From positions 84,898-148,897 of the forward strand of contig CAZFNL010000137.1 of the NCBI GenBank assembly GCA_964520615.1: a stretch of DNA of 64,000 bases, read 5' to 3'. Shown piece by piece: positions 1-64,000 of the stretch. The notes beneath the pieces are model-generated. The model was not told the DNA's origin and searched no databases. It was given only the letters and a program-made list of their open reading frames with translations. The stretch is from an uncultured Gammaproteobacteria bacterium (GTDB lineage: Bacteria; Patescibacteriota; Microgenomatia; 2-02-FULL-39-11). The position numbers were made by a program, and so were the translations under genes. Position 1 is the stretch's first letter. Every line of letters begins with the position of its first letter.

Positions 1-1898
1 AGATAAATGCGGCACCACAACTCAAACACAAATAATATCCAGACGCGCAAATGCTCACTCCAAAGCATCTTGCCCGGTTTTGACTCATAAAATTTATTGA
101 CCACTCCAGATATATATTTTTCGTTGAATATTCCTCTTTTTTTAAGGGACTCTGCGCTTAAAACTGATTTTATATAAGGTTTCAATTTTCCTTTCATGTA
201 AATCACTCTCGGGATGGCAAAACCTGTTTTTTTGTGATTTATCACTTCCTTTGGCAACCAGTCTGCCACAGCTTTCTTGAGGATATATTTTGAAATTCCA
301 TCTCTAAACTTACGGGAAGGGTGAATTCTTGCTGAAAATTCAACAAGTCTGGGATCAAGAAAGGGCACTCTTGCCTCAAGAGAATTTGCCATACTCATCA
401 TATTCATACCCAAAAGCAAATCATCTCTGGTATAGCTTTTAAGGTCAATATAGTTTAATTGATCTACTGGATGCCAGCTTTTTATTTTCTGATACAACCC
501 GTCAAAATAATTTTGTGTGCTATAGTTTCCGTAATGCTTTGCTAAATAATCCTGACTGTAAATGTTTTTTTTCTCCTCCTCCTGATAAGCAAAATAAAGA
601 TAAAGGCTGCGCCGGACAAGAGTCGGCAGATTAAAAAAATCCTGTGATACTGATAAGACTTTCTTCCAGTCTGACCGGAAAGCAATCCTTTTCATCAGTA
701 AAAAAAGGAGTGATCTCGCGGCCGGAGGAATATGGTTGTATATGTCTCCTATAGATTTGGTATTGTAAAGCTCACTGTGGTATCCGGCAAAAAGCTCATC
801 CCCGCCAAGTCCTGACAAAGCTACTTTTACATCCTTTGCCGCCAGACGGGAAATAAAATATGTTTCGAGTGATCCTCCCGTGGGCTGGTCGAAATAATAG
901 ATTATTTGAGGAAGACTCTCTACCAAATCATTCTGTGATACGGTAAACTCCGTATGTATTGTCCCGTAACGTTTTGCTACCATTCCGGCATATTTTCTCT
1001 CATCATAGGCGCTACCCCCTTCAGACCAAAGCGAGTAAGTCCGTACGGGATGTCCTGACGACATTGAAAGAAGCGCAACAACTGTCGAAGAATCCACACC
1101 ACCAGAGAGATACGCACCTACCGGCACATCTGATACCTTGGCATAAGCTACCGCAGATACCAATTTTCTTTTCAGTTCTTCTATTTCCTCTTCTTTCGGA
1201 ATGGTTTTATTCTGCCATAAACCAACCGGGAGTTCCCAGTACTTCTCAATTCCGACTCCTCTTTTATCCACTGTCATGACTCTACCGGGCAAAAGACTAT
1301 TTACCCCTTCTATTATTGTCATAGGACTGGGGATGGAAAATATAGAAAGGTAGTGATGTAAAGATTCCGAACTTATCTCCCTCTTAACCAAACCTGACGC
1401 CAATATAGATTTTAATTCTGAGGCAAAAATAAAAGTTTTACCTACTTTAGTCCAATAGAGAGGGTTTACACCCAATTGATCGCGAACCAATATAAACTTA
1501 GACTGCCGTTTATCCCAGATACAAAATGCAAATTGTCCATTTAGTTTTTTAACAAACATGAGACCATACTCCCTGTAGCCGTTCAATATTACCTCCGTAT
1601 CAGTATGAGAAATGAATTCGTATCCCTTACCGACTAAATCTTTTTTCAATTCTTCAAAATTGAATATTTCACCGTTAAAGGTTATCCAGAATTCCCCATC
1701 TTTTGATGCCATTGGCTGACTACCAGCTATCGTTGGATCAATAATTGCCAGCCTGCGGTTTGCCAATCCGATATTTTCCTCCAAATGCTCACCGTGGCCA
1801 TCAGGACCCCTATGAACCAGAACGGAATCCATTCTGTGAAGGATTTTTTTATCAACTTTATGTCCATCAAAATTAAAAACTCCTGCTATGCCGCACAT
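1..1898 (-). CDS. asnB: Asparagine synthase (glutamine-hydrolysing), AsnB/WbpS-like amidotransferase. The 3' end runs off the window.
   Basis: The reverse-complement translation from 1898 begins MCGIAGVFNFDGHKVDKKILHRMDSVLVHRGPDGHGEH..NIGLANRRLAIIDP, a class-II glutamine amidotransferase N-terminus. An SGGVDSS PP-loop motif lies near 1090 in the same frame. The frame stays open to position 1. This ORF is absent from the supplied ORF track because it crosses the window edge. Confidence 0.8.
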   Translation of the reverse strand, partial: MCGIAGVFNFDGHKVDKKILHRMDSVLVHRGPDGHGEHLEENIGLANRRLAIIDPTIAGSQPMASKDGEFWITFNGEIFNFEELKKDLVGKGYEFISHTDTEVILNGYREYGLMFVKKLNGQFAFCIWDKRQSKFILVRDQLGVNPLYWTKVGKTFIFASELKSILASGLVKREISSESLHHYLSIFSIPSPMTIIEGVNSLLPGRVMTVDKRGVGIEKYWELPVGLWQNKTIPKEEEIEELKRKLVSAVAYAKVSDVPVGAYLSGGVDSSTVVALLSMSSGHPVRTYSLWSEGGSAYDERKYAGMVAKRYGTIHTEFTVSQNDLVESLPQIIYYFDQPTGGSLETYFISRLAAKDVKVALSGLGGDELFAGYHSELYNTKSIGDIYNHIPPAARSLLFLLMKRIAFRSDWKKVLSVSQDFFNLPTLVRRSLYLYFAYQEEEKKNIYSQDYLAKHYGNYSTQNYFDGLYQKIKSWHPVDQLNYIDLKSYTRDDLLLGMNMMSMANSLEARVPFLDPRLVEFSARIHPSRKFRDGISKYILKKAVADWLPKEVINHKKTGFAIPRVIYMKGKLKPYIKSVLSAESLKKRGIFNEKYISGVVNKFYESKPGKMLWSEHLRVWILFVFELWCRIY

Positions 1899-1904
1899 AA
1901 ACGA

Positions 1905-3092
1905 TTAAATTATCTCTTTATAAACATCTTCCGTTCTCTCAACAATTTTATCTATAGAATACTCATTTTTAACCATTCTATTGGCATTTCTCCCGAAATA
2001 ACTGCGGAAATTTTCCCGTTTCAAGATCTCTTCCAAACCCTGTGCTATCTTTTTCGCATTATTATCAACTATTTTGCCCGCGTCGTATTCTATGATTCTG
2101 TCAAAACCTGATTTATCAGATAACAGAAGAGGTAGATTGCAAGCGGCCGCCTCTAACGCGGAAATAGGCATACCCTCAGCGTAGGAAGTCAAAGCAAATA
2201 CATGAGCAGCTGATAAAGCCGCCAGCTTAGCCCTTCCCGTAAGATTACCGGCAAAAATTACCGCTTTTTCCAAACCATTACTCCTTGTTGTCATCTTTAA
2301 GTCGTCCAGATATTCTTTTTTTTCTGCAGGCCCTGCAATCACTAGTTTAATATTGTCTTTTTTATAATGTATATATAATAGTGATTTTATCAGAAGCTCA
2401 ATTCCTTTTTTGGGATGTATCCGTCCAAGAAAAAGAATGACACAATCGTTTTCTTTTAATCCCCATTGACTACGAAATTCAACTTTTTTGGGAAGTTTTA
2501 GGAATAGATTAGCGTCAATACCGTTAGGAATTACTATCACATTTTTCTTATTAATCCCCAATTTCAAATATGATTTTTTCTCTTCCTCTGTCAGGGCGAT
2601 AATTTTTGCCGCTCCCAAAAGGAGTTTTTTGCCGCCAAATTGGTAAAATAACTTTTTCCTTCCTAGATTACCTTCTTTTTCCGACATCTTGGCCGTACCG
2701 TGTCCCGACAATATATAAGGGATGCCCTTTTTTTTTGCCCAAAAAGCCGCCCACAAATGCATTGGGGTATATATTTCATGCATATGGATTATGTCAAAAT
2801 CTGAGATAGTTCTTATAAGTTTAAGGAAAAAAGCTGGCGGGGAAAAAATATGTTTTTTGAAGGCAAGATTTCCGGAAATATTTTTGAAGTAATAAACGCC
2901 AAATCCTTCAATCCTTATTTTTTTATTTGTCTGTGCTTTAATACTATCTGTATCGCTGCCTAAATCAGTAGTAAATACTATCACTTCATGACCATGTTTT
3001 ACCAATTCTCGGCTTAGATTATATACTGCCGTTGCGCTTCCTCCAACTGAAAGAGCTGGAAAAAAGTATGGGACTAATTGAAGAATTTTCAT
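1905..3092 (-). CDS. Glycosyltransferase family 4 (GT-B, Glycos_transf_1).
   Basis: 395 aa. The N-terminus MKILQLVPYFFPALSVGGSATAVYNLSRELVKHGHEV is a GT4 N-domain, and the C-terminal half EGMPISALEAAACNLPLLLS is a retaining GT-B motif. Confidence 0.85.
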   Translation of the reverse strand: MKILQLVPYFFPALSVGGSATAVYNLSRELVKHGHEVIVFTTDLGSDTDSIKAQTNKKIRIEGFGVYYFKNISGNLAFKKHIFSPPAFFLKLIRTISDFDIIHMHEIYTPMHLWAAFWAKKKGIPYILSGHGTAKMSEKEGNLGRKKLFYQFGGKKLLLGAAKIIALTEEEKKSYLKLGINKKNVIVIPNGIDANLFLKLPKKVEFRSQWGLKENDCVILFLGRIHPKKGIELLIKSLLYIHYKKDNIKLVIAGPAEKKEYLDDLKMTTRSNGLEKAVIFAGNLTGRAKLAALSAAHVFALTSYAEGMPISALEAAACNLPLLLSDKSGFDRIIEYDAGKIVDNNAKKIAQGLEEILKRENFRSYFGRNANRMVKNEYSIDKIVERTEDVYKEII

Positions 3093-4798
3093 TTAGTAAT
3101 CAGATAATCTTCCAGTATCATTGCGTCCAGTCCTGAATTTTCAAAAGTGGAAAGAGCAACGTCAGGAGTACCCACTATTGGAAACCCATGCAGGTTAAAT
3201 GAAGTATTAAGGAGTCCCGCAACACCAGTCAGTTTTTTAAATTCGGTCAATATGCCTCTGTAACCGGGATTCCAGTTATCTACCGTCTGCGGTCTACATG
3301 TTCTGTCATATGGATGAAGCCCGGCAACAATCTCGTCTGCTCTTTCTTTTGTGTCGAAAGCCTCAATCATATATCTGGCAGGTTTTTGGTAATCTTTCAA
3401 ATATTTATCTGAATCCTCCTCCAGAATGGAGGCGGCAAAAGGCATCCAAAAATCCCTTTGCTTTATGGCAAAGTTTAATTTTGAAATCACCCGCAAATCT
3501 CTTGGATCAGCCAGAATACTGCGATTACCCAATGCTCTAGGCCCCCACTCGTCCCGGCCGGCAAACCTGGCGACAATTTTACCACTGTTTAACAGTTTAG
3601 CGGTTTCTTTTGCCATCCCCTTCTCCAATTTCACGGCTTTCTTTTTCCATTTTGATTTTTTTAGTAAACTGTCGACTTCTTCAGAGGAATATTTTTGTCC
3701 GAGATACAAATCTCCAAGCGGCTCAACCTCAGCCTTTATTTTCATCTCCTGACACAATCTGACATAACCTTCAATGGCAACCCCGGCTGGAGTCCCGCCG
3801 TCATCAGCTGCCGGATAGAAAAAAGCTTTTTTCACTTCTGGCATTTCCCTTATTACTTTGTTTGCCTTCACATTGAGAAATGAACCTCCGCTTGCGGCCA
3901 CGTTATGCACTCCGGTATGAGCTATTGCATTTTTTACCCATTGTGAAACCAGATCTTCAAAATATTTCTGTGTTGCAAAGGCAATATTGTCAAATCTGCG
4001 CCCGGCAAGAATAGAAGCAAGATTTCTAGTGACATCATATAGATAAGCACCGAAAATATTCTGGAACTCCAGGGGTCTTCCCGGATTTATCCTGATGATT
4101 TTTTTGAATTCATCCATCAGTCCGTCATCCCTGCCGTATGGCGCGAGTCCCATCACCTTGTACTCATGTTCCCAGCGTTTCATCCCGAGGTACCCGGTTA
4201 TCTCACTGTAAATATTGTTGGACAGGCTGTCATAAAATGTCGTTTCGGCAACTCTTTTGATTTTATTATTTTTACCTACTGAAACCGTAGCGGATAACCC
4301 GTCCCCCGACCCGTCCAGTGTAAGAATTAATGTTTCATCCTGAAAACCTGAACCGTAATAAGCGCAGGCGGCGTGGCTCAGATGATGGTCAATAAAAATG
4401 ATTTTTTTCTCCCCAATCCCAAGACTTTCAAATAGATCCTTCAGTCGACCTGTTTGCCTGAACTTATGAAGAAGTTTTACATATGCTTTTGCAAAAAGAT
4501 GTGAATGAAGGTATGGTGCCAGTTCGACCTGAAGCCTTCCCAGCCAGTTGATGTCAGCATATGGTGGACCCACACGGACAAAACAGCCTATGGCGATAAG
4601 GTCGGTTTGCTCAGGCGGTATCCCCGCAATTTCAAAAACTTTGGCAATGGCAAATACCGGCACGCCGGAATAATTCTTTATGTTATTCAGCCTCTCCTCG
4701 GATATGGCTGAAAGTATTTTCCCGTCACGAAGGAGTGCCGCCCCCGCATTGTGCCCGTCATGAATACCCAAAACAGTAAGATGATTTTTCTTATCCAT
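3089..4798 (-). CDS. Carbamoyltransferase, NodU/CmcH (HypF-like) family.
   Basis: 569 aa. The N-terminus LTVLGIHDGHNAGAALLRDGKILSAISEERLNNIK is typical of NodU/CmcH O-carbamoyltransferases, and the length fits the family. It overlaps the downstream GT4 by 4 nt. Confidence 0.85.
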   Translation of the reverse strand: MDKKNHLTVLGIHDGHNAGAALLRDGKILSAISEERLNNIKNYSGVPVFAIAKVFEIAGIPPEQTDLIAIGCFVRVGPPYADINWLGRLQVELAPYLHSHLFAKAYVKLLHKFRQTGRLKDLFESLGIGEKKIIFIDHHLSHAACAYYGSGFQDETLILTLDGSGDGLSATVSVGKNNKIKRVAETTFYDSLSNNIYSEITGYLGMKRWEHEYKVMGLAPYGRDDGLMDEFKKIIRINPGRPLEFQNIFGAYLYDVTRNLASILAGRRFDNIAFATQKYFEDLVSQWVKNAIAHTGVHNVAASGGSFLNVKANKVIREMPEVKKAFFYPAADDGGTPAGVAIEGYVRLCQEMKIKAEVEPLGDLYLGQKYSSEEVDSLLKKSKWKKKAVKLEKGMAKETAKLLNSGKIVARFAGRDEWGPRALGNRSILADPRDLRVISKLNFAIKQRDFWMPFAASILEEDSDKYLKDYQKPARYMIEAFDTKERADEIVAGLHPYDRTCRPQTVDNWNPGYRGILTEFKKLTGVAGLLNTSFNLHGFPIVGTPDVALSTFENSGLDAMILEDYLITK

Positions 4799-4876
4799 AA
4801 CTCTCTAATCTAAAAACTCTACAATTATACAATAGAACCTCTCTTCCTGCCCAAAAACATTCCAATTTCTTATTTT

Positions 4877-4938: not shown

Positions 4939-4952
4939 AGCAGACAAATAAC

Positions 4953-4981: not shown

Positions 4982-4990
4982 CCAGGCTAT

Positions 4991-5770
4991 ATGAAGACAA
5001 TCATACTCTGCGGAGGAACAGGTACCAGGCTTAAAGAAGAAACGGAATACAAGCCAAAACCGATGATAAACGTCGGCGGCAAGCCCATCATTTGGCATAT
5101 CATGAAAATATACGCCCACTGGGGCTTCAATGAGTTTATTCTGGCGCTGGGCTATAAGGCCAACTATATCAAGGACTTTTTCCTCAACCAGAAAGCTTTT
5201 ACCACAGACTTTACACTAGAAACAAAAACACACAAAACTTCCTACCACTGGGAGCATAGAAAAGAAGTGGATGATTTCAAAATCACATTTGTCGATACCG
5301 GCATGGATACTCTTCCGGGAGAAAGGATTCTTCTCTGTGAGAGCTACATCCCCAAAAGCGATAAGGATTTTATGGTGACATACGGCGACGGCGTGACGGA
5401 TCTTGATATCGTAAAACTTGTGAAGTTCCACAAGAAACAAAACACAATAGGAACCATAACCGGAATCCATCCCAAATTTAAGTTTGGAGTGGTAAAAGTA
5501 GGAAACAACAATAAGATACAGGAGTTTAAGGAAAAACCATACATGTCTGATTGGGCAAACGGAGGATATATGGTTTTCAAGAGGGATTATTTCAAATACC
5601 AGAAGCCGAAAGAATTGGAACACGCCGCTCTTGCCCGCCTAGCCAAAATTTCACAGCTCTCCATTTACAAACACACAGGTTTCTGGTTTGCTGTCGACAC
5701 TAACAAAGAATATGACCAACTGAACGGCATCTGGGAAAGCGGCAATCCGCCGTGGAAAGTATGGAAGTGA
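4991..5770 (+). CDS. rfbF: Glucose-1-phosphate cytidylyltransferase.
   Basis: 259 aa. MKTIILCGGTGTRLKEETEYKPKPMINVGGKPIIWHIMKIYAHWGFNEFILALGYKANYIKDFF is the canonical RfbF/DdhA N-terminus, and the length is typical. Confidence 0.9.
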   Translation: MKTIILCGGTGTRLKEETEYKPKPMINVGGKPIIWHIMKIYAHWGFNEFILALGYKANYIKDFFLNQKAFTTDFTLETKTHKTSYHWEHRKEVDDFKITFVDTGMDTLPGERILLCESYIPKSDKDFMVTYGDGVTDLDIVKLVKFHKKQNTIGTITGIHPKFKFGVVKVGNNNKIQEFKEKPYMSDWANGGYMVFKRDYFKYQKPKELEHAALARLAKISQLSIYKHTGFWFAVDTNKEYDQLNGIWESGNPPWKVWK

Positions 5771-19242: not shown

Positions 19243-20190
<948 letters not shown>

Positions 20191-24292: not shown

Positions 24293-24293
24293 T

Positions 24294-33160: not shown

Positions 33161-33162
33161 AT

Positions 33163-36452: not shown

Positions 36453-36454
36453 TT

Positions 36455-38215: not shown

Positions 38216-38216
38216 T

Positions 38217-54523: not shown

Positions 54524-54829
54524 TTAATTCCAAACTGACTTTACCAGGTCTACTGTATCAGCATTCCTAAACACTACTCCCTCTTTTCTCAACCGGGCTG
54601 ATTGTGCAACTTTACCCCCGAAAGCATAGCCATTTGCTATTTTTCCGTCACTCCTAACCACCCTGTGGCAGGGTATTTTTTGCGGGTCAGAATTTTGATG
54701 AAGAATTGCCCCAACCAACCTGGGATTTATTTTACCTGCTTTTACCGCAACAGCTTTATAAGTCATCACTTTGCCCTGGGGTATTTTTGCCACAATATTG
54801 TAAACTCTTTTAGTTGTGTCGCTTTTCAT
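54524..54829 (-). CDS. MGMT-family protein (O6-alkylguanine-DNA alkyltransferase DNA-binding/active-site domain only).
   Basis: 101 aa. VMTYKAVAVKAG and IPCHRVVRSDGKIANGYAFGG carry the PCHRV active-site Cys motif. It is not the PWHRV variant found in ATL proteins. Confidence 0.8.
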   Translation of the reverse strand: MKSDTTKRVYNIVAKIPQGKVMTYKAVAVKAGKINPRLVGAILHQNSDPQKIPCHRVVRSDGKIANGYAFGGKVAQSARLRKEGVVFRNADTVDLVKSVWN

Positions 54830-56738: not shown

Positions 56739-56762
56739 AATAAATCCTATCTTTATTATTTA

Positions 56763-57798: not shown

Positions 57799-58545
57799 TT
57801 AATTCTGCCTATGTTTTAACTTATTCCATGGTCTTGTCAAAAACAATCTCCACAGACCTTCAAGATCACCATACACTGTTTTTAACACCCTGACTGTTGA
57901 ACCAGGATTATCTACCCAAAGAACAGGCTGTTCATATATCCTATATCCCAATTTCTCGCCCATAATCAACATTTCACTATCAAAAAACCAGGCATTATCC
58001 ACTATATGGGGGATAAGTTCTTTCACTGTTTTTCTGGTTACCGCCTTAAAACCACATTGTGCATCGGAAAACTTTGTCTGAAAGAAAAGCTTTATTAGTA
58101 TATTATACCCTCTTGAAAGTACTTCCCGCTTTATAGGCCTGCGCTTTACTTTTGATTGCAAAAGAAGTCTTGATCCAATCGCTATATCGTAACCTTCCAA
58201 CAAAGATCTCACAACCGGCTCAAGATTACGCAAATCGGTTGACAAGTCAACATCCATATACACAGACACGTCGGCGCGGCTCTGCCGCCATACCTTTTTT
58301 ACCGCCCTGCCGCGTCCTTTCTGGTCCAGATGGAAATATCCCACTCTCTTGTATTTTTTTGCCAGCTTTTTCGCAATATCAAGACTTCTGTCGGTCGAGG
58401 CGTTGTCTGCAATAGTAATTTTCCAGTCATAAAGAGTAAGATTTTTTTTGAGAAACGTCTGCAATTTTCTGACATTTATTTCAAGCTCTTCTTCCTCGTT
58501 AAATATCGGTATTACTATCTCTACTGATTTTTTCTTATTGGCCAT
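57799..58545 (-). CDS. Glycosyltransferase family 2.
   Basis: 248 aa. VEIVIPIFNEEEELEINVRKL..ITIADNASTDRSLDIAKKLA and MDVD. Confidence 0.8.
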   Translation of the reverse strand: MANKKKSVEIVIPIFNEEEELEINVRKLQTFLKKNLTLYDWKITIADNASTDRSLDIAKKLAKKYKRVGYFHLDQKGRGRAVKKVWRQSRADVSVYMDVDLSTDLRNLEPVVRSLLEGYDIAIGSRLLLQSKVKRRPIKREVLSRGYNILIKLFFQTKFSDAQCGFKAVTRKTVKELIPHIVDNAWFFDSEMLIMGEKLGYRIYEQPVLWVDNPGSTVRVLKTVYGDLEGLWRLFLTRPWNKLKHRQN

Positions 58546-60254
58546 CTTAATTTTGTGTCCCGAAATAATGATACATATACTAACAAAATTAGGCTTAAAA
58601 TGGAAATGGCATTTGACAGTGTTCTCACAAGTGTATTGCCGAAATTGAATTCCAATATATGATTCCCGGAAGAAACAAAAACATCTATAAGTCCGTTTTT
58701 GACACTTATTACCTCATTTTTTCCGTCAATTTTGGCCTGCCAGCCGGGAAAATAGGCTATTTGGGAAGTAAAACTTCCTTTTTGTGAGACATATATACTA
58801 TATTTTTTCTGCGTGGCCGACTCCGCCAAAATACTCAATATATTCAAATTGCTGCCCGATATCAGATTGTGGTAGACAACTTCTGACTGCCTTTTTGGGA
58901 TAAAAATTCCCGGTGGCAAATACTCATCTGATATTTTGGAAATCTTAAATCTCAAATTGTCAGAACTTGTGTAGTAAGACTGCTGAAACTGGACATATTC
59001 TTTAGGCTGGAAATACTTATAATTCAGAAAAACAGCGGGAATAACAAGTATTATAGCAAGTGGCATGGCAAATTTCCTTTTCAAAGGCAAAAATACGACG
59101 GCTGATACGGCCGAAAGGCTAAAGACGGCAAATGTCAGAAAACGCCAGGGATACTGTATAAAGGAAAATCCCGGAAGAATCCGCCAAAATAGTGATGACT
59201 CCTCCAGCATAAAATAAACCGATATGGGAAAGATGGCAAATATCAACAGAATGAATCTAAATATGCCCTCCGACAGCTTTTTGCGGAAGTATAGGAAAAA
59301 TAAAACCGCAACTGACAACAACCCCAAAAAAAGATTGTACTTCCCTATCTTAAAAGATAATCCATCTGCCCTACCGGGAGATGAACCGCCATACCCCCAC
59401 GGGGAATTCCACAGCTGGTCTGGATAGACAAAATTTGACGAATAATTGCTTCCACCCATTGTAAGGCTTTCCACCCTGGTGTATCCTTTTTCAATTACAG
59501 CAGGTATGGTAAAAAAAGCTGACAGACCGACTCCCAATGCAACTGTAAGAATAAGTGAAAATAACAGGCTGAAACCCCTCTTTTTTATTAAACTGTAAAT
59601 AAAGAGAAACAAAAGCCCGCAAGAAATAAAATACAGAGTGACCATTCCCAATATATTGTGTGACAAAAGAATCCCTGCAAGGCCGTCAGAAGCCAAAAGG
59701 AGACCCAAACTTTTGTCTTTACCCCTTTTATTCTCTTTTTTATTTTCGCTTTTTTGGATTAAAAAGAGACCCAAAAAGAATAGCGGCAAAAAAGCCAAAG
59801 CATAATACTCTCCCACTGCTCCCCTGACATATATATCTACCGCATGATAAGGAACATATGTAAAAATGACTGCAGATACAATACCGGCCATATTTCCGGC
59901 AATTTCTCTGCCTAAAAAATACATTGATACTAAAGCCAGAAGGATTCCGACTGCGTACATCGTCTTAGTTGCAGATATCGCATCCATTCCGAGGATGTTA
60001 AAAGCAGCACCTACATAATAAGGCAAAGGCGCATAAAAATTGAAAATGGGATAACCGTATCCATATCCCAAATCCTGAACCATTCGGACCGGAAACTGTC
60101 CTTCTTTCAGAGCTTTGGCCATCTCATACACACGGGAGGGCTGGGTATCGTCGTGTACAGGAAAAAAACCGCGGACAAAAAGCGGCCTGACAACCAAATA
60201 TGATAGCAGGAAAATGACAGCAATGCAGACGACTTGCACAAAAAATCGTCTCAT
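58521..60254 (-). CDS. YfhO-like polytopic membrane protein, family B copy 2.
   Basis: 577 aa. FPVHDDTQPSRVYEMAKALKEGQFPVRMVQDLGYGYGYPIFNFYAPLPYY, and a C-terminal YFPGWQAKIDGKNEV..GNHILEFNF domain plus a terminal TM. Confidence 0.5.
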   Translation of the reverse strand: MRRFFVQVVCIAVIFLLSYLVVRPLFVRGFFPVHDDTQPSRVYEMAKALKEGQFPVRMVQDLGYGYGYPIFNFYAPLPYYVGAAFNILGMDAISATKTMYAVGILLALVSMYFLGREIAGNMAGIVSAVIFTYVPYHAVDIYVRGAVGEYYALAFLPLFFLGLFLIQKSENKKENKRGKDKSLGLLLASDGLAGILLSHNILGMVTLYFISCGLLFLFIYSLIKKRGFSLLFSLILTVALGVGLSAFFTIPAVIEKGYTRVESLTMGGSNYSSNFVYPDQLWNSPWGYGGSSPGRADGLSFKIGKYNLFLGLLSVAVLFFLYFRKKLSEGIFRFILLIFAIFPISVYFMLEESSLFWRILPGFSFIQYPWRFLTFAVFSLSAVSAVVFLPLKRKFAMPLAIILVIPAVFLNYKYFQPKEYVQFQQSYYTSSDNLRFKISKISDEYLPPGIFIPKRQSEVVYHNLISGSNLNILSILAESATQKKYSIYVSQKGSFTSQIAYFPGWQAKIDGKNEVISVKNGLIDVFVSSGNHILEFNFGNTLVRTLSNAISILSLILLVYVSLFRDTKLRWPIRKNQ

Positions 60255-60261
60255 AAAAAGA

Positions 60262-61899
60262 TTAGGCAGAAGGGCGTTTAATTAATCGAAGGACAAGAGA
60301 TCTTAAAAGCAAGACTGCTGCAGCCGATAAACTAAACAGGGATATCATATCAGACCAGAATCTGACCGGGGTTTCTGTAAATTTGCCCTCCACCAATTTG
60401 TTACCGACAGGAACATTAACTGTAATTAACCCTTGGGGACTTGACCGGTAATCTATGGGCACTTCAACTCCCCCAACATAAAATTTCCATCCGGGAAAAT
60501 ATATAGTGTTTATCGTCACTGTATTGGGCTGTTCCGTGATGGTTCTGAATGAGATTTCATGGGAATTATACTGCAAGTTGTACAAGGTAGATTTGGCTTT
60601 GGCAAGAATAGCTTTTGGTCCAGTATAGCGGTTTTCCGGTTTCTCTTTTACCCATATAGGCATCAGTTCATCTTTGGATGTAGTAGTAGCATCATTGGTA
60701 GCATAATAAACATCAGGTTTATTGATATATACATCCGGATGGGCGAAATTCAGACTGAATATCACTGTAACAACTACCAGTATTCCTCCTATTATTCTAG
60801 TATTCTTATGAGTGGAAAGGAAAATTGACGACATCGCAAGGAAGAATGCTAAAGGCGTCAGAAGCCTCCAGGGAAAATCAAGCCATGAAAGAGGAGGAGC
60901 ACTCCAGAAATCAGCCGAAAAGGGATGGGCGAAAAAGATTAAAACCGCAATTGAAGAAATGATAAAAATCGCAAGTGGCATATATTTTTTACGATCAATC
61001 TCAGATGAAACCATTAGGCTTATAAAACCCAAAATACCGGCCAATATATGCGCCCAACCCAACTGGAATGAAGGCTTGTCTCCCCAACTCCAAGGCGAAA
61101 GAAGAAAGTCAGGTAATCTGATAAAATTCTGGGAAACGTCAGCAAGCTTTATTTGAGAAAGAATAAGGTAATTTTTTTCCAAAAGTGCAGGTATATAAAA
61201 ATATGCCGCCAGTCCCAATCCCAATAAAATCATAGGAAGAAAATACCGCCAGGAGTAGAGTTTTATATCTTCATAATAAGAAATTACGGAAACATAAAGA
61301 AATACTATCCAAAATGGAAAAAAAACCAAAGCCATGATGTTATGAGCCAAAATCATAAACGCCAAAACAAATGAACACAGTACCATTTTTACCGAAGTAG
61401 GTTTTAATACATACTTCAAAGACAGATAAAATAGAAGCGGAAAAATAGCCAGACTGAGCGATTCGCCTATAGATCCCCTAACATACAAATCAACCAGTCT
61501 GAATGGAGCCACAGTATAAAACACAGCAGATAGAAACCCGGCATAATCGCCTGCCAGTTCTCTCCCGAGAAGAAACATAAAAATCGCAGAAAAAAAGACG
61601 CTTGCAACAAATATAATTTTTATAGAATCAGTAAGACCTATATGCACCAGTCGGAAAAGTATTCCTATATAAAAAGGTGCTGGGTAGGTAAATGAAAAAA
61701 GAGGGTAACCGTACCCGTGGTTAAGATAATCTGACCAGCGAGGCGGAACCTGCAAGTCTTTTATTTCACGTTGCATTTCAGCCAGGCGCACTATCGACCA
61801 TTCACCGTCCTGAGTGGCAAAAAAGCCTGTTCTGAAATATGGCTTGGTATATAAAAGTACGACTATTAATATGACAATAAAAGGCAGAAATCTTCTCAT
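60262..61899 (-). CDS. YfhO-like polytopic membrane protein, family B copy 3.
   Basis: 545 aa. FATQDGEWSIVRLAEMQREIKDLQVPPRWSDYLNHGYGYPLFSFTYPAPFY, and a C-terminal YFPGWKFYVGGVEV..GNKLVEGKF domain. Confidence 0.5.
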   Translation of the reverse strand: MRRFLPFIVILIVVLLYTKPYFRTGFFATQDGEWSIVRLAEMQREIKDLQVPPRWSDYLNHGYGYPLFSFTYPAPFYIGILFRLVHIGLTDSIKIIFVASVFFSAIFMFLLGRELAGDYAGFLSAVFYTVAPFRLVDLYVRGSIGESLSLAIFPLLFYLSLKYVLKPTSVKMVLCSFVLAFMILAHNIMALVFFPFWIVFLYVSVISYYEDIKLYSWRYFLPMILLGLGLAAYFYIPALLEKNYLILSQIKLADVSQNFIRLPDFLLSPWSWGDKPSFQLGWAHILAGILGFISLMVSSEIDRKKYMPLAIFIISSIAVLIFFAHPFSADFWSAPPLSWLDFPWRLLTPLAFFLAMSSIFLSTHKNTRIIGGILVVVTVIFSLNFAHPDVYINKPDVYYATNDATTTSKDELMPIWVKEKPENRYTGPKAILAKAKSTLYNLQYNSHEISFRTITEQPNTVTINTIYFPGWKFYVGGVEVPIDYRSSPQGLITVNVPVGNKLVEGKFTETPVRFWSDMISLFSLSAAAVLLLRSLVLRLIKRPSA

Positions 61900-63393
61900 T
61901 TATCGTTTATTTATTATACCTGGCTGCACCAACACCTGGTAAAAAAGTAAAAATGTATCACTGTTGCCTCTCCTGTATTTCCCGATAAGTTTTAATGGCC
62001 AGTTGGAAGGTACTTGCTGGGTTTCCTTAAAAACCAGGTATGTCGGATACTTTTTTGCGCTTTCCAAAAGCACGGATGGAATATTCCCTACTGGCCAGTA
62101 ACCGTGTATATCTATATTTTTGTCATTACCCAGATATATCTGAAAAACCGCAGGAAAAAGCCCAAAGGTACCTTCGGTCCCCAATACGATTTTACCATAT
62201 GATGATTTATCTTTAAGATATGTTATTACCTCATTCACCCCGTAACCAGAAGGCCAATTGTTAAATAACTGATTCCTGTCAGTGACAGGTATGGCTGCAT
62301 TTACCGGATTTGTGAGCAAAAGAAATGATTGATATAAAGGAAAGATCACTATAATCGGAATCACAATAAGAAATGCCTTCATTTTTTTCGACGAAAAAGA
62401 ACCAAAAGCGGTAAGAGTATAACCAACTATAACAAGAAGCGACATTGTCATAAAAAGAAGAAATCTTGGAAAAAGCACCTTACCAAAGGCAGCCAGTGCC
62501 AAAAAAGGCACTAAAAACCAAAAGTATAAAAGAGCCAATCTATTATCTTTTTTAATAATTGCAAATATAAAAATGACAATAAGCACAACATCAACAGGAA
62601 CAGTCATATAAGGAATTAAAAACTGAAGCAATCCGTGTAGATTCGGCAGAAATACAGAAAATGGTGCATGAAAAAATTCCGGCACTGTGTATATGAAGGA
62701 ATAATTCTTTTGCTTTATAAGATAAAACCACGGAGATAATCTCAAAGAGTTATACATTACTTCAGCGATAAAGGTACTTATCAGGCTCAGACCAACCCAT
62801 TTAAGAAGCCTTCTTATTTTTTTCTTTGCCTTAAAATCAAATAAGACTAAGCTGAAAGGCAAAAGCAGAATATAAAAAAGGGCGGAAGACTTGGTCAAAA
62901 GTCCCAATCCTACAGTCATTCCCAAAAGAAGAGCAACATCAAGTCTGATTTTTTTAACTAGAAGAATTTCCAGATAAAGACTCCATATTCCTATAGTTGC
63001 CAAAAGACTGTCCATAAGCGCCAACCTATCATACAGAAGGTTAAAAGGTGCTATCATATATAATATAGAGCTTGCTACAGCAGCTTTCTTACCAAAAAGA
63101 TTTCTTGCCACAAGATATATACCCACTACCGCTGCCACTCCAGAAAGCACCGAGACAAACCTACCGGCAAAAAGTGGGTCATGAAAAAGCTTGAACATGG
63201 GATACATGAACCATGTCAAAAGGGGTTGTTTGCCGTCGGTAAGTGCTATATACCTTTGAGCAGGATCTGCCAGCCCGATTTGGGCCCAACGGATGTATAT
63301 AGCCTCATCGGTAAAAATAGGTATATTCAAGAGATTTACCACTCTTGTAACAAATGTCACAATAGCAATACCAATAACCAATAATACTTCCAT
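61900..63393 (-). CDS. PMT_2/ArnT-like GT-C glycosyltransferase, a divergent copy outside the tandem array.
   Basis: 497 aa. IPIFTDEAIYIRWAQIG has a DE..Y loop-1 motif, followed by about 11 TM segments. Confidence 0.5.
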   Translation of the reverse strand: MEVLLVIGIAIVTFVTRVVNLLNIPIFTDEAIYIRWAQIGLADPAQRYIALTDGKQPLLTWFMYPMFKLFHDPLFAGRFVSVLSGVAAVVGIYLVARNLFGKKAAVASSILYMIAPFNLLYDRLALMDSLLATIGIWSLYLEILLVKKIRLDVALLLGMTVGLGLLTKSSALFYILLLPFSLVLFDFKAKKKIRRLLKWVGLSLISTFIAEVMYNSLRLSPWFYLIKQKNYSFIYTVPEFFHAPFSVFLPNLHGLLQFLIPYMTVPVDVVLIVIFIFAIIKKDNRLALLYFWFLVPFLALAAFGKVLFPRFLLFMTMSLLVIVGYTLTAFGSFSSKKMKAFLIVIPIIVIFPLYQSFLLLTNPVNAAIPVTDRNQLFNNWPSGYGVNEVITYLKDKSSYGKIVLGTEGTFGLFPAVFQIYLGNDKNIDIHGYWPVGNIPSVLLESAKKYPTYLVFKETQQVPSNWPLKLIGKYRRGNSDTFLLFYQVLVQPGIINKR

Positions 63394-63453
63394 AACAATC
63401 TCAAGCCATTATAGCATTTATAACTCATTAAAAAGACATTTGTCAGACTGACT

Positions 63454-63927
63454 TTACGGTTTTGGGAAACATAGCTGACGAAGAAGTACAAGTATAAAAA
63501 CTGTAAAAACAGGTAGTACAAATAGTAAATTCTCCATGGGAAGTACACTACCTGAATAATCTCCCGCAAAGATAAAAGGAGCATACCGCAACATTGCCCC
63601 CAAAGTTAGAAAAACCGTAAACAGCTTCAGATTGAAACTCTTGCGAATAAGAGCTGTTATTCCCACAAGAGGTATGAAATACCATGGGTACGGCTCCCTA
63701 TAAATTATTTCCGCTCCTATTCCCAAAAAAGTTAAAAGGTACAAAGTGTATAAACCCCATCTGCCCAGTTCTACTTTCCTAAATTTATGCAGAATAAAAA
63801 CCGGCAACAGTAAAAGCGTGGCATATTTTACGCCTGCAGAGAGGAAAATTGCCAAAAAGCCTGAGATTTCTTTTTTTTTAAGGAAGAAAAGATAAATAGC
63901 CGCTAGAAGAAAAGTTAGCATCAACAC
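63454..63927 (-). CDS. Hydrophobic membrane protein, possibly the C-terminal part of a larger gene whose start lies beyond the window.
   Basis: 157 aa with four hydrophobic segments. The frame may stay open upstream toward position 64000. Confidence 0.3.
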   Translation of the reverse strand: MLMLTFLLAAIYLFFLKKKEISGFLAIFLSAGVKYATLLLLPVFILHKFRKVELGRWGLYTLYLLTFLGIGAEIIYREPYPWYFIPLVGITALIRKSFNLKLFTVFLTLGAMLRYAPFIFAGDYSGSVLPMENLLFVLPVFTVFILVLLRQLCFPKP

Positions 63928-64000
63928 CTCGTTATGAGGACTGACTATTGACTCAATTATTACAAGTGGGTTAAGTGCAAAAAAAGCTACAGATGCGGTA

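What the first reader, a model, noticed from the sequence alone, without database searches (positions are those of the whole stretch)
1..64000. Overall: an exceptionally dense glycosylation island with about 15 GT-A/GT-B and 16 GT-C enzymes and almost uniform strand orientation
About 90 percent of the coding sequence is on the minus strand. Most junctions are 1-4 nt overlaps (ATGA or GTGA). I found no mobile-element genes, no tRNA flank, and no obvious boundary. The combination is what one would expect for an elaborate surface-glycan system: rare-sugar pathways, many polyprenyl-P-sugar synthases, two expanded GT-C families, a PIG-V-like enzyme and a Wzx flippase. Candidates are an S-layer or pilin O-glycosylation system, or a wall glycopolymer. 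The AT-rich, overlap-rich style resembles uncultivated small-genome lineages where such systems are largely undescribed.
Basis: inference. Interest (0 to 1): 0.7.

Follow-up and report, generated by a model that had tools for sequence, protein, structure and literature searches.

The report
Giant surface-glycan gene cluster, CPR bacterium
The whole 64-kb window lies inside a gene cluster of at least 69 kb from an uncultivated, small-genome Gottesmanbacteria-type bacterium, in which more than half of the genes are glycosyltransferases (15 cytoplasmic, at least 15 membrane-embedded GT-C types), so this organism appears to spend a large share of a tiny genome on an undescribed, complex surface sugar coat.

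Summary

- **Layout:** 93% of coding sequence is on the minus strand. There are no tRNAs, Rfam RNAs, mobile-element genes or long repeats, and composition is uniform.
- **Overstated claim:** only about 13 of 46 same-strand junctions can be 1- or 4-nt overlaps.
- **Source:** closest homologues (90-92% to Patescibacteria MAGs, 50-66% to many Candidatus Gottesmanbacteria) and conserved gene order place the window in Gottesmanbacteria (Microgenomates, CPR).
- **Extent:** the cluster continues past both window ends. A Wzm/Wzt exporter and more GTs lie to the left, and a MptA/B-type GT-C and a GT2 lie to the right.
- **Variable part:** window 6.9-18 kb encodes a YerE/RfbFGH rare-sugar pathway. It is swapped in a close relative and shared with unrelated phyla.
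- **Proposed mechanism:** stacked multi-component extracytoplasmic glycosylation. GT2 polyprenyl-P-sugar synthases (one with a GacJ-type activator), Wzx and ABC export, and a GT-C array would build or decorate an envelope glycan.

The acceptor is unknown. I judge it a new variant of a known kind. I found no description of it in the literature searched.

The parts
1..1898 (-). AsnB-like glutamine amidotransferase. The window holds its first 632 aa; the gene is 650 aa and ends left of the window. I infer a sugar amidotransferase because it sits between two GT4 genes.
   Evidence: Pfam Asn_synthase 284 bits, GATase_7 144 bits. Full gene seen in L035.
1905..3092 (-). GT4 (GT-B) glycosyltransferase.
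   Evidence: Glycos_transf_1 116 bits, Glyco_transf_4 94 bits.
3089..4798 (-). NodU/CmcH-type carbamoyltransferase. O-carbamoylation of a sugar is inferred.
   Evidence: Carbam_trans_C 181 bits, Carbam_trans_N 117 bits. Weak NodU hit.
4991..5770 (+). Glucose-1-phosphate cytidylyltransferase-like enzyme (RfbF-like).
   Evidence: TIGR02623 257 bits against a cut-off of 300. 93% identical in relative L042.
5861..6898 (+). CDP-glucose 4,6-dehydratase-like SDR with a low-complexity insert at 6272-6313.
   Evidence: TIGR02622 199 bits, below the cut-off. Insert seen.
6902..7846 (-). GT2 with two C-terminal TM helices, PgfS/ArnC-like. Candidate polyprenyl-P-sugar synthase. First gene of the variable cassette.
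   Evidence: NF047588 PgfS 222 bits and ArnC 132 bits, both below their cut-offs. TM prediction. Synteny with L042 ends at window 6831.
7843..8643 (-). HpcH/HpaI aldolase-like protein.
   Evidence: PF03328 28 bits against a cut-off of 25.
8692..9795 (-). AroB-related sugar-phosphate cyclase-like enzyme.
   Evidence: TIGR04425 348 bits against a cut-off of 400. DHQ_synthase Pfam hit.
9792..10466 (-). Short-chain dehydrogenase/reductase.
   Evidence: adh_short 144 bits.
10472..11398 (-). NAD-dependent sugar epimerase/reductase.
   Evidence: Epimerase 89 bits.
11383..13224 (-). YerE-like thiamine-diphosphate carboligase, an enzyme type that forms branched-chain sugars.
   Evidence: PDB 8rph (JanthE, described as a YerE-like enzyme in PMC12188165), E 9e-131 over the full length. 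Also hits 5ahk.
13298..14356 (+). SAM-dependent methyltransferase.
   Evidence: Methyltransf_23 77 bits.
14370..15071 (-). GT2 glycosyltransferase.
   Evidence: PF00535 75 bits.
15136..16386 (+). RfbH, CDP-6-deoxy-D-xylo-4-hexulose 3-dehydrase.
   Evidence: NF011936 634 bits against a cut-off of 423.
16411..18066 (-). Polytopic membrane protein (about 8 TM, lowest GC in the window). Possible GT-C or polymerase; unclassified.
   Evidence: No Pfam hit. Weak NF046093 hit at 32 bits. TM count. hhalign against the tandem family is negative.
18123..19178 (-). NDP-sugar dehydratase/epimerase (SDR).
   Evidence: Epimerase 135 bits.
19243..20187 (-). GDP-L-fucose synthase-like 3,5-epimerase/4-reductase.
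   Evidence: NF047922 288 bits against a cut-off of 500.
20191..20976 (-). GT2 glycosyltransferase (TuaG-like).
   Evidence: PF00535 99 bits. NCBIfam result.
20939..21304 (-). DUF2304 small 3-TM protein of the GacJ/Rv3632 family. Members of this family activate polyprenyl-P-HexNAc synthases.
   Evidence: PF10066 74 bits. 3 TM. Family role taken from bioRxiv 10.1101/180810.
21309..21989 (-). GT2 resembling PpgS/GacI, a polyprenyl-phospho-HexNAc synthase.
   Evidence: NF058614 PpgS 143 bits over the full length, below the cut-off of 370.
22025..23221 (-). PIG-V-like GT-C (10 TM).
   Evidence: PF04188 28.4 bits against a cut-off of 22.4. TM count.
23228..24382 (-). GT4 glycosyltransferase.
24294..25094 (-). 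GT2 glycosyltransferase.
25091..26743 (-). GT-C, YfhO/PTPS_related-like. Member of the 3-gene family B.
   Evidence: YfhO 38.7 bits. 28% identical over the full length to 58521 and 60262.
26730..27536 (-). GT2, AglJ/PpgS-like. Candidate polyprenyl-P-sugar synthase.
27484..28974 (-). Eukaryote-type UDP-galactopyranose-mutase-like flavoenzyme. Furanose formation is inferred.
   Evidence: PDB 4dsg, E 1e-25 over residues 6-451. NF005548 475 bits against a cut-off of 389.
28987..29916 (-). GalE-like NDP-hexose 4-epimerase.
   Evidence: TIGR01179 197 bits, below the cut-off. Epimerase 213 bits.
29928..39875 (-). Six tandem PMT_2/ArnT-like GT-C genes: 29928-31544, 31541-33160, 33163-34827, 34827-36452, 36455-38305, 38217-39875.
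   Evidence: PMT_2 30-47 bits, all above the 26.1 cut-off. 28-38% mutual identity. Invariant D32-E33. AF2 model pLDDT 92 and GT-C fold hits. One-to-one orthologues at 81-90% in L036.
39862..40740 (-). Truncated 8-TM paralogue of the tandem GT-Cs. It lacks the acidic first loop and the C-terminal domain, and is probably non-catalytic.
   Evidence: hhalign 98%. The same truncation is present in orthologues from L036 and L037.
40737..42416 (-). Seventh tandem PMT_2 GT-C.
42590..43513 (-). GT2 glycosyltransferase.
43529..45844 (-). YfhO-family GT-C (771 aa, 12 TM).
   Evidence: PF09586 63.7 bits. TM count.
45813..46913 (-). GT4 glycosyltransferase.
46914..49494 (-). Three consecutive GT2 genes: 46914-47669, 47666-48574, 48571-49494.
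49504..51192 (-). Signal-anchored extracytoplasmic (beta/alpha)7-barrel protein of the glycoside hydrolase/deacetylase superfamily. It is 562 aa; the longest ORF, which reaches 51390, is over-extended.
   Evidence: P0361 is 562 aa and aligns from residue 67. AF2 pLDDT 91.9. Foldseek 3lm3 3.7e-15, plus CE4 deacetylases, ArnD, GH38 and GH57. Fused to Wzx or PMT_2 in other organisms.
51189..52637 (-). Wzx-type flippase.
   Evidence: Polysacc_synt_3 176 bits. 11 TM.
52740..54116 (-). PMT_2 GT-C.
   Evidence: 35.3 bits.
54109..54513 (-). Cupin. Possible sugar isomerase or epimerase.
   Evidence: Cupin_2 47 bits.
54524..54829 (-). Mini O6-methylguanine-DNA methyltransferase domain with the PCHR motif. 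Not a glycan gene.
   Evidence: PF01035 82 bits. Sequence read.
54853..55617 (-). GT2, AglJ/PgfS-like.
55614..57794 (-). Two NDP-sugar SDR enzymes: an epimerase at 55614-56738 and a 4,6-dehydratase-like enzyme at 56763-57794.
57799..58545 (-). GT2, PgfS/ArnC-like.
58521..61899 (-). Two PTPS_related GT-C genes of family B: 58521-60254 and 60262-61899.
   Evidence: PF10131 41.9 and 24.4 bits. 31% mutual identity.
61900..63393 (-). PMT_2 GT-C.
   Evidence: 66.6 bits. Orthologues at 55-66% in Gottesmanbacteria.
63454..64000 (-). C-terminal part of a 389-aa MptA_B-family GT-C that begins right of the window.
   Evidence: L040 gene 512-1681 carries PF26314. 99% identical over the in-window 157 aa.

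Best explanation
**What it is.** The window is the middle of a vertically inherited chromosomal supercluster of a Gottesmanbacteria-class bacterium (Microgenomates, CPR/Patescibacteria). At least 69 kb is shown for this organism, and relatives suggest about 80-90 kb. I propose that it makes the cell's surface glycans. Gene identities and synteny are shown; everything below about mechanism is inferred from homology.

**How it most likely works: stacked multi-component extracytoplasmic glycosylation.**
1. Soluble enzymes make unusual activated sugars:
   - a CDP-3,6-dideoxy, C-branched hexose (RfbF/G/H plus a YerE-like enzyme);
   - a furanose (GalE-like plus UGM-like enzymes);
   - 6-deoxyhexoses;
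   - carbamoyl, methyl and amide decorations.
2. About six GT2 enzymes load single sugars onto polyprenyl phosphate. One is paired with a GacJ/Rv3632-type DUF2304 activator.
3. Other GT2 and GT4 enzymes extend lipid-linked oligosaccharides in the cytoplasm.
4. A Wzx flippase, and a Wzm/Wzt ABC exporter just left of the window, move lipid-linked glycans outward.
5. At least 15 GT-C enzymes transfer sugars or oligosaccharides from the lipid carriers onto a wall-associated polymer, a lipoglycan, or surface proteins. Seven of these are anciently diverged tandem ArnT/PMT-like paralogues, each with an intact DE motif.
6. The swappable rare-sugar cassette (window 6.9-18 kb) varies the outermost sugar between strains.
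For: **Taxon and vertical inheritance**
- GT-C 29928 is 90% identical to a protein of GCA_023487465.1 (Patescibacteria) and 50-63% identical to many Gottesmanbacteria proteins. GT-C 61900 and the flanking Wzt give the same picture.
- Gene order is the same in L036, L037 and L041.
- Locus tags A2960_00595 and A2960_00720 are 25 genes apart, the same spacing as in the window.
- Within-window paralogues are only 28-38% identical, but each has a one-to-one orthologue at 81-90% in L036. The duplications are therefore old and have been retained.
- Composition is uniform and there are no mobile-element genes.

**GT-C enzymes look functional**
- D32-E33 and other acidic or basic residues are invariant across 60 sequences.
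- The AF2 model has pLDDT 92. Every top Foldseek hit is a GT-C: ArnT at TM 0.55-0.57, then AglB, STT3, PglB and Pmt4.

**Lipid-monophosphate route**
- A PpgS-like GT2 sits next to DUF2304.
- The GacI/GacJ and PpgS/Rv3632 precedent is described in bioRxiv 10.1101/180810. The three- and four-component models are reviewed in PMC9574508.

**Export**
- Wzx scores 176 bits. Wzm and Wzt are present in L035.

**Sugar pathways**
- RfbH scores above its cut-off. The ThDP enzyme matches JanthE at 9e-131. The flavoenzyme matches a UGM at 1e-25.

**Variable cassette**
- Synteny with L042 stops at window 6831.
- The cassette genes are 40-70% identical to genes in Bacteroidota, Gammaproteobacteria and Micrarchaeota MAGs.
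Against: - No biochemical or expression data exist. Every function is assigned by homology.
- Most NCBIfam best hits for the GT2 'synthases' and several sugar enzymes fall below the curated cut-offs.
- The window and the sampled flanks contain no initiating phosphoglycosyl transferase (WecA/WbaP type), no GtrA flippase, no LCP ligase, no Wzy/Wzz Pfam hit, and no acceptor protein.
- It is not shown that the modules act on one product.
- Taxonomy rests on best hits and synteny, not on marker genes.
- The true ends of the cluster were not reached.
Confidence: 0.6

Rival explanations
1. The GT-C array is mainly a protein O-glycosylation machine. PMT-like enzymes would glycosylate S-layer proteins, pilins or Ser/Thr-rich disordered regions of membrane proteins, rather than assemble a wall polysaccharide.
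For: - Nine genes hit PMT_2 or PMT, the protein O-mannosyltransferase families.
- The DE motif is invariant, as in PMTs (the PMT comparison is my own knowledge).
- Pmt4 and the oligosaccharyltransferases are among the fold hits.
- GT2 6902 resembles PgfS of the S. mutans Pgf protein-glycosylation system.
- Streptococcal GtrB/PgtC2 glycosylation of disordered regions is a precedent in single-membrane bacteria (PMC12041528).
Against: - The closest fold in size and TM-score is ArnT, which acts on a lipid or glycan acceptor.
- No candidate acceptor protein is encoded in about 69 kb.
- The Wzm/Wzt exporter, Wzx, cytoplasmic GT2/GT4 runs and MptA/B-, YfhO- and PIG-V-like GT-Cs are typical of polymer or lipoglycan synthesis.
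- Seven differentiated paralogues plus eight other GT-Cs is more than any known protein O-glycosylation system uses (my own knowledge).
Confidence: 0.2
2. The region is not one system. Several unrelated glycan pathways (for example an exopolysaccharide, a teichoic-acid-like polymer and a glycolipid) would merely sit next to each other on the chromosome.
For: - Two export routes are present: Wzx in the window and Wzm/Wzt in L035.
- Gaps of 102-192 nt at 4798-4991, 42416-42590 and 52637-52740 could separate operons.
- Non-glycan genes are interspersed: a mini-MGMT here and TGT in L041.
- The array composition differs in L037.
Against: - Linkage and gene order are kept over 50-60% protein identity in at least six assemblies that carry orthologues of both 29928 and 61900 on one contig. 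This is inferred from equal contig lengths, and from the locus tags.
- The known dual-route systems (lactococcal rhamnan plus PSP) do make one joined product (PMC9574508).
Confidence: 0.15
3. The region is a recently acquired or mobile genomic island, or an assembly or binning chimera.
For: - The cassette at 4991-18066 has its closest relatives in Bacteroidota, Gammaproteobacteria, Roizmanbacteria and Micrarchaeota MAGs.
- That cassette is replaced in L042.
Against: - Outside the cassette, gene order is conserved across Gottesmanbacteria.
- There is no integrase, transposase, tRNA or flanking repeat.
- GC content and tetranucleotide use are uniform.
- Independent Logan assemblies of two runs reproduce the sequence at 100% identity.
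Confidence: 0.05

Closest known systems
Rhamnose-rich cell-wall polysaccharide loci of lactococci, streptococci and enterococci (cwps, GAC, Epa) with three- and four-component glycosylation (review PMC9574508)
   Same: - An ABC-exported backbone route together with a Wzx route.
- A GacI/GacJ-type pair (GT2 plus a 3-TM DUF2304 activator) that makes polyprenyl-monophosphate-HexNAc.
- Cytoplasmic extension by GT2 and GT4 enzymes.
- GT-C enzymes that attach or polymerise outside the membrane.
- A variable part that serves as a phage receptor.
   Different: - No rml genes or rhamnosyltransferase signatures were found, and no LCP ligase was seen.
- At least 15 GT-Cs here against 1-3 there, and at least 69 kb against about 20-30 kb (the comparison size is my own knowledge).
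- The organism is a CPR bacterium.
- The GT-Cs belong to the PMT_2, PTPS_related, YfhO, PIG-V and MptA_B families and include a seven-gene tandem array.
Corynebacterineae arabinogalactan and lipoarabinomannan machinery, including PpgS-Rv3632-Rv3779 (bioRxiv 10.1101/180810; the rest is my own knowledge)
   Same: - Many GT-C enzymes use polyprenyl-P-monosaccharides to build a polymer outside the membrane.
- A UGM supplies a furanose.
- A Wzm/Wzt-type exporter is present.
- A PpgS-like GT2 is paired with a DUF2304 partner.
- A MptA/B-family GT-C is present.
   Different: - No Emb/Aft (Arabinose_trans) Pfam hits and no DprE1/E2 or UbiA-type genes.
- The UGM-like enzyme is of the eukaryotic type.
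- The lineage is unrelated and the genome is about four times smaller.
- All GT-Cs are clustered rather than scattered.
Arn pathway (ArnC, ArnD, ArnE/F, ArnT)
   Same: - ArnT is the best structural match of the tandem GT-Cs (TM 0.55-0.57).
- ArnC-like GT2 genes are present.
- The secreted barrel protein at 49504-51192 matches ArnD among the deacetylase-fold proteins (8t0j).
   Different: - The sequence relationship to ArnT is marginal (profile E 0.05).
- No ArnA or ArnB genes are present, and no lipid A is expected as a target.
- The barrel protein has no conserved His metal site.
Streptococcal protein O-glycosylation by GtrB/PgtC2 and the Pgf system (PMC12041528)
   Same: A GT2 polyprenyl-P-sugar synthase (PgfS-like 6902) working with PMT-like GT-C enzymes in a single-membrane bacterium.
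   Different: - No acceptor proteins were identified.
- There are far more GT-Cs here.
- Polymer-export genes are also present.
Yersiniose-type CDP-3,6-dideoxy branched-sugar pathway (RfbF/G/H plus YerE); YerE-like enzymes JanthE and ErwE (PMC12188165)
   Same: RfbH scores above its curated cut-off. RfbF- and RfbG-like genes are present. The ThDP enzyme matches JanthE at 9e-131.
   Different: The cassette also carries an HpcH-like aldolase, an AroB-like cyclase, SDRs and a methyltransferase, so the product is probably not yersiniose itself.

Membership tests
GT-C glycosyltransferases, PMT_2/ArnT-like (the seven tandem genes, plus 52740 and 61900) | Pfam PMT_2 score above the gathering threshold | tested here: met
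   All nine score 30.0-66.6 bits against a cut-off of 26.1.
GT-C glycosyltransferases, PMT_2/ArnT-like | Polytopic N-terminal membrane domain with a conserved acidic motif in the first outer loop | tested here: met
   7-9 hydrophobic segments. D32-E33, D49 and D64 are invariant in 60 sequences that include all seven paralogues.
GT-C glycosyltransferases, PMT_2/ArnT-like | GT-C fold | tested here: met
   AF2 pLDDT 92.3, pTM 0.92. The top 31 Foldseek PDB hits are all GT-C enzymes. ArnT gives TM 0.55-0.57.
GT-C glycosyltransferases, PMT_2/ArnT-like | Uses a polyprenyl-phosphate-linked sugar donor | not testable with these tools
   Needs enzymology.
GT-C (39862-40740, truncated paralogue) | Catalytic acidic first loop present | tested here: not met
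   Homologous by hhalign at 98%, but the loop and the C-terminal domain are deleted in it and in two orthologues.
GT-C (16411-18066) | Detectable homology to a GT-C family | tested here: inconclusive
   No Pfam hit. NF046093 32 bits against a cut-off of 150. hhalign against the tandem family gives 0.8%.
Three- or four-component extracytoplasmic glycosylation system | GT-A enzyme that makes a polyprenyl-P-sugar | tested here: inconclusive
   Six GT2 genes have PgfS, ArnC, PpgS or AglJ as best NCBIfam hit, but all are below the curated cut-offs.
Three- or four-component extracytoplasmic glycosylation system | Small 3-TM activator (GacJ/DUF2304) next to the GT-A gene | tested here: met
   PF10066 74 bits against a cut-off of 25.5. 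It has 3 TM and lies between GT2 21309 and GT2 20191. Family role.
Three- or four-component extracytoplasmic glycosylation system | Flippase (GtrA family or Wzx family) | tested here: met
   Wzx-type Polysacc_synt_3, 176 bits. No GtrA (PF04138) in the window. A GT2-GtrA fusion occurs in the right flank of relative L041.
Three- or four-component extracytoplasmic glycosylation system | GT-C transferase | tested here: met
   See the GT-C rows above.
Wzx/Wzy-dependent O-antigen or capsule cluster | Initiating phosphoglycosyl transferase, Wzy polymerase and a chain-length regulator | tested here: not met
   No Glycos_transf_4, Bac_transf, Wzy_C or Wzz Pfam hit in any of the 55 genes or in the precomputed annotation of flanks L035, L040 and L042.
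ABC-transporter-dependent polysaccharide pathway | Wzm (ABC2_membrane) and Wzt (ABC_tran) pair in the cluster | tested here: met
   Present 2-3.3 kb left of the window in L035, which is the same organism at 100% identity. Wzt is named 'polysaccharide ABC transporter ATP-binding protein' in the 92% relative.
Rha-CWPS locus | rmlABCD genes and rhamnosyltransferases | tested here: not met
   No enzyme reaches an Rml cut-off. The dTDP-glucose dehydratase model scores 190 bits against 365, and rmlD 52 bits or less.
Mycobacterial arabinogalactan/LAM machinery | Emb/Aft arabinosyltransferases and DprE1/E2 | tested here: not met
   No such Pfam hits. EmbB, EmbC and AftD are only distant fold matches.
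UDP-galactopyranose mutase (27484-28974) | Full-length similarity to solved UGMs | tested here: met
   4dsg E 1e-25 over residues 6-451. The bacterial UGM model TIGR00031 scores only 57 bits against 304. The substrate was not tested.
CE4 (NodB) polysaccharide deacetylase (49504-51192) | Asp-His-His metal triad | tested here: not met
   The fold matches CE4 deacetylases and ArnD. No His is invariant or nearly invariant in 55 homologues; the conserved residues are E94, D158, D184, D245 and E278.
Candidatus Gottesmanbacteria (source organism) | Phylogenetic marker genes | not testable with these tools
   The window has no marker genes. The assignment rests on best hits and synteny.

The most novel reading that the evidence does not exclude
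Gottesmanbacteria, and probably other Microgenomates, assemble their main envelope polymer largely outside the membrane. An assembly line of at least 15 GT-C enzymes would be fed by polyprenyl-monophosphate sugars.

- This would be an independent, far denser counterpart of mycobacterial arabinan and mannan synthesis, occupying about 6% or more of a genome of roughly 1.1 Mb.
- It would include a conserved catalytically dead GT-C paralogue and a Wzx- or GT-C-associated extracytoplasmic barrel enzyme as new accessory parts.
- It would carry a swappable rare-sugar cassette that sets host or phage recognition.
Probability: 0.3. Interest if true: 0.75.

Novelty: new variant of a known kind. Interest (0 to 1): 0.55.

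Why it matters
CPR bacteria are thought to live attached to other microbes and to lack most biosynthetic pathways, and the chemistry of their envelopes is essentially unknown.

- **Scale.** The cluster is conserved and spans at least 69 kb, with at least 30 glycosyltransferases. That is roughly 6% of a genome the size of the largest related contig (1.12 Mb). By this inference, surface glycans would be one of the organism's largest genetic investments.
- **Testable targets.** The cluster offers concrete candidates for study: seven differentiated ArnT-like GT-Cs, a GacI/GacJ-type pair, a UGM-like mutase and a YerE-type sugar pathway. These can be used to ask what CPR cells display to hosts and phages.
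- **Strain variation.** The variable cassette suggests serotype-like variation between strains.
- **New accessory parts.** The truncated GT-C and the Wzx- or GT-C-fused barrel domain are uncharacterised components of lipid-linked glycosylation, and they occur well beyond this lineage.

Tried and rejected
1. **Taxonomy from the ThDP enzyme.** The single genome-contig scan used gene 11383. It returned relatives in many phyla, which shows the cassette moves horizontally. It did not place the contig, and the scan could not be repeated.
2. **Metagenome scan lost.** The only metagenome-contig scan failed with a tool error ('unexpected contig name') and was counted as used. The organism's own flanks beyond L035 and L040 could therefore not be fetched.
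3. **Right-end ORF look-up.** The exact look-up of the in-window 157-aa ORF at the right end found nothing. It is only the C-terminal part of a longer gene, which L040 resolved.
4. **Tandem GT-C against PDB sequences.** phmmer found nothing. A 60-sequence profile found only ArnT at E 0.05. Fold comparison was needed.
5. **The 628-aa ORF as a GT-C.** Rejected. It has one TM, a corrected start, and a GH/deacetylase-like fold. CE4 deacetylase membership was also rejected because no His is conserved.
6. **16411-18066 as a member of the tandem family.** Rejected by hhalign. It remains unclassified.
7. **Promoter and terminator scan of 42.3-54.2 kb.** Counts equal the shuffled expectation, so it is uninformative.
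8. **Mobile island or chimera.** Rejected on composition, absence of repeats or tRNAs, and conserved synteny.
9. **Literature.** Searches for Gottesmanbacteria, Microgenomates, Patescibacteria or CPR together with glycosyltransferase terms found only general remarks on elaborate CPR cell surfaces, for example PMC8080830.

Full report
**1. Observation**

The window (GC 0.38) holds 55 genes that cover about 96-99% of its length, and 93% of coding bases are on the minus strand. Pfam scans of every gene give these counts:

- Nine PMT_2 GT-Cs, all above the gathering score.
- Three mutually related PTPS_related/YfhO-like GT-Cs (25091, 58521, 60262).
- A 771-aa YfhO protein and a PIG-V-like protein.
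- A gene at the right end that the organism's own Logan contig L040 shows to be a 389-aa MptA_B-family GT-C running off the window.

That makes 15 GT-Cs with family-level support. Two more candidates remain:

- A 292-aa protein (39862-40740) is a truncated homologue of the tandem family (hhalign 98%).
- An 8-TM protein (16411-18066) stays unclassified.

There are no tRNAs, no Rfam matches, no repeats above 42 nt and no mobile-element domains. Tetranucleotide composition is uniform. Thirty or more GTs among 55 genes is far beyond chance (assuming 3% of genes are GTs).

One sub-claim is overstated. At most 13 of 46 minus-minus junctions can be 1- or 4-nt overlaps. Packing is still very tight.

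**2. Source organism**

- GT-C 29928-31544 is 90% identical to a protein of the MAG GCA_023487465.1 ('Patescibacteria group bacterium'). It is 50-63% identical to more than 100 proteins. Every named hit among them is Candidatus Gottesmanbacteria or Microgenomates.
- GT-C 61900-63393 gives the same picture, with Chisholmbacteria appearing at 47%.
- So does the flanking Wzt (92% to a Patescibacteria protein).
- The window's own sequence recurs at 100% identity in Logan assemblies of SRR12217122 and SRR12217123. It is therefore not an assembly artefact.
- No marker gene is available, so the class assignment is an inference from best hits and synteny.

**3. A conserved chromosomal locus with a variable cassette**

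In L036 (the 90% relative), every gene from window 20.1 to 41.5 kb has an orthologue in the same order. Each of the seven tandem GT-Cs has a one-to-one partner at 81-90% identity, against at most 39% to any other paralogue.

A Gottesmanbacteria contig at about 55% identity (L037) keeps this order: array, GalE-like, UGM-like, GT2, GT2, GT4, PIG-V-like, GT2, DUF2304, GT2, epimerase. The middle of its array is rearranged.

In GCA_001780955.1, the orthologues of 61900 and 29928 carry locus tags 25 genes apart, exactly as in the window. The right part of the window is syntenic there as well. The within-window paralogues share only 28-38% identity. The duplications therefore predate the divergence of these genomes and have been retained.

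Synteny with a close relative (L042: Wzt 92%, AsnB 87%) stops at window 6831. The window's block from 6902 to about 18066 is replaced there by GFO/IDH/MocA and SDR genes. That block has these properties:

- It contains all four plus-strand genes of the window.
- Its genes are 40-70% identical to genes of Bacteroidota, Gammaproteobacteria, Roizmanbacteria and even Micrarchaeota MAGs.

It is a swappable rare-sugar cassette inside a conserved locus.

**4. Extent**

- To the left, L035 (same organism) adds the rest of AsnB, a GT4, and Wzm (ABC2_membrane), Wzt (ABC_tran) and a further gene.
- In L042 the cluster continues at least 10 kb beyond Wzt, with GT2, GT4, GT10 and methyltransferase genes.
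- To the right, L040 adds the MptA_B gene and a GT2.
- In L041 the cluster continues at least 10 kb with GT2, PMT_2, a GT2-GtrA fusion, UDP-glucose dehydrogenase and epimerases.

This shows 69 kb for this organism, and relatives suggest about 80-90 kb. The largest related contig is 1.12 Mb.

**5. Parts and likely mechanism**

*Sugar supply*
- RfbH scores above its curated cut-off, and RfbF- and RfbG-like genes are present.
- The ThDP enzyme matches the YerE-like JanthE (8rph) at 9e-131.
- The cassette also has an HpcH-like aldolase, an AroB-like cyclase, SDRs and a methyltransferase.
- Elsewhere there is a GalE-like epimerase next to a eukaryote-type UGM-like flavoenzyme (4dsg 1e-25; NF005548 above its cut-off).
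- Two further dehydratase/epimerase sets, a cupin, a carbamoyltransferase and an AsnB-like amidotransferase complete the list.

*Lipid loading*
- Six GT2s have PgfS, ArnC, PpgS or AglJ as best hit, all below the curated cut-offs.
- GT2 21309 (PpgS-like over its full length) is followed by a 3-TM DUF2304 protein. This is the GacI/GacJ and PpgS/Rv3632 arrangement.
- In lactococci such a pair starts oligosaccharide synthesis on polyprenyl monophosphate. Wzx then flips the product and GT-C enzymes attach or polymerise it (PMC9574508).
- That precedent would explain why no WecA- or WbaP-type initiator is found here.

*Export*
- Wzx lies in the window. Wzm and Wzt lie just outside.

*Transfer outside the membrane*
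- The tandem family has invariant D32-E33 and further charged residues.
- Its AF2 model is confident (pLDDT 92.3). All top structural matches are GT-C enzymes, and ArnT is the closest in size and TM-score.

All mechanistic steps are inferred from homology. Gene identities and synteny are shown.

**6. Two accessory parts seen along the way**

*Truncated GT-C paralogue.* The 292-aa paralogue and its orthologues in L036 and L037 all lack the acidic first loop, the second loop and the C-terminal domain. This is a conserved, presumably non-catalytic membrane core within the array.

*Extracytoplasmic barrel protein.* The gene after Wzx really starts at 51192, giving a GTGA overlap with Wzx and a 562-aa product.
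- It has no Pfam, NCBIfam or PDB sequence match.
- It folds confidently (pLDDT 91.9) into a (beta/alpha)7 barrel of the glycoside hydrolase/deacetylase superfamily, followed by beta-rich domains. Matches include 3lm3 at 3.7e-15, CE4 deacetylases, ArnD, GH38 and GH57.
- It has no conserved His. The conserved residues are Asp and Glu. It is therefore not a canonical CE4 enzyme.
- In other organisms the domain is fused to Wzx or to PMT_2 GT-Cs. This ties it functionally to flipped, lipid-linked glycans.

**7. Comparison with known systems**

The logic matches multi-component extracytoplasmic glycosylation as described for Rha-CWPS, GAC and Epa (PMC9574508), and three-component systems in general (PMC11127046). 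It also resembles the Corynebacterineae arabinogalactan/LAM machinery and the Arn pathway. It is not a member of any of these:

- No rml genes or rhamnosyltransferase signatures.
- No Emb, Aft or DprE genes.
- No ArnA or ArnB.
- No Wzy, Wzz or phosphoglycosyl transferase.

What is different is the lineage (CPR), the scale, the seven-gene differentiated GT-C array with a dead paralogue, and the mix of five GT-C families in one locus. Full-text searches found no description of it. The literature only notes that elaborate cell surfaces are common in CPR (PMC8080830).

**8. Verdict**

- The best explanation (confidence about 0.6) is a vertically inherited envelope-glycan supercluster that works by stacked multi-component extracytoplasmic glycosylation and carries a swappable rare-sugar cassette.
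- The main rivals are protein O-glycosylation as the chief role (0.2), several independent co-located pathways (0.15), and a mobile island or chimera (0.05).
- Novelty: a new variant of a known kind. Interest: 0.55.

Noticed in passing
window 39862-40740 (-); L036:814-1683; L037:876-1787: A 292-aa, 8-TM homologue of the tandem GT-Cs. It has lost the acidic catalytic first loop, the second loop and the C-terminal domain. The same truncated form is present in relatives at 79% and 28% identity, so it is a conserved and probably non-catalytic GT-C core of unknown role (a scaffold or lipid-carrier handling are possibilities).
   Followed up: yes
window 49504-51192 (-): A signal-anchored 562-aa protein with no family match. 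Its predicted structure is a (beta/alpha)7 barrel of the glycoside hydrolase/deacetylase superfamily, but it has no conserved His metal site. About 700 representative relatives exist, and some are fused to Wzx or to PMT_2 GT-Cs. The longest ORF (to 51390) is over-extended; the real start gives a GTGA overlap with Wzx.
   Followed up: yes
window 6902-18066: A rare-sugar cassette that is replaced in a close relative and shared with Bacteroidota, Gammaproteobacteria, Roizmanbacteria and Micrarchaeota MAGs. It combines a YerE-like ThDP enzyme, an HpcH-like aldolase, an AroB-like cyclase and RfbFGH. This hints at a higher-carbon branched or carbocyclic sugar rather than plain yersiniose.
   Followed up: partly
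window 54524-54829 (-): A 101-aa protein consisting only of the O6-methylguanine-DNA methyltransferase DNA-binding/active-site domain, with the PCHR motif kept. It sits in the middle of the glycan genes. The relative L041 has a tRNA-guanine transglycosylase gene at the equivalent spot.
   Followed up: no
window 4870-4940 and 6272-6313: Runs of TAATTCC/TAATTCA-like short repeats lie in the divergent intergenic region between the carbamoyltransferase and cytidylyltransferase genes. A related sequence, in reverse complement, forms an in-frame low-complexity insert (GMMNNELRIMNTK...) in the CDP-glucose dehydratase-like gene.
   Followed up: no
window 27484-28974 (-): The UGM-like flavoenzyme resembles eukaryotic (trypanosomatid and fungal) UDP-galactopyranose mutases over its full length. 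It resembles the short bacterial enzymes much less. It belongs to the NCBIfam 'hypothetical protein' family NF005548.
   Followed up: partly
window 16411-18066 (-): An unclassified 8-TM protein in the lowest-GC stretch of the window (0.32), at the edge of the variable cassette. It is reminiscent of low-GC wzy genes in O-antigen clusters. It could be the cassette's own transferase or polymerase.
   Followed up: partly
L042:14135-15265 (left flank of a close relative): A GT10-family (fucosyltransferase-type) gene lies in the continuation of the cluster left of the window, together with several proteins that have no Pfam match (286, 333, 225 and 306 aa).
   Followed up: no
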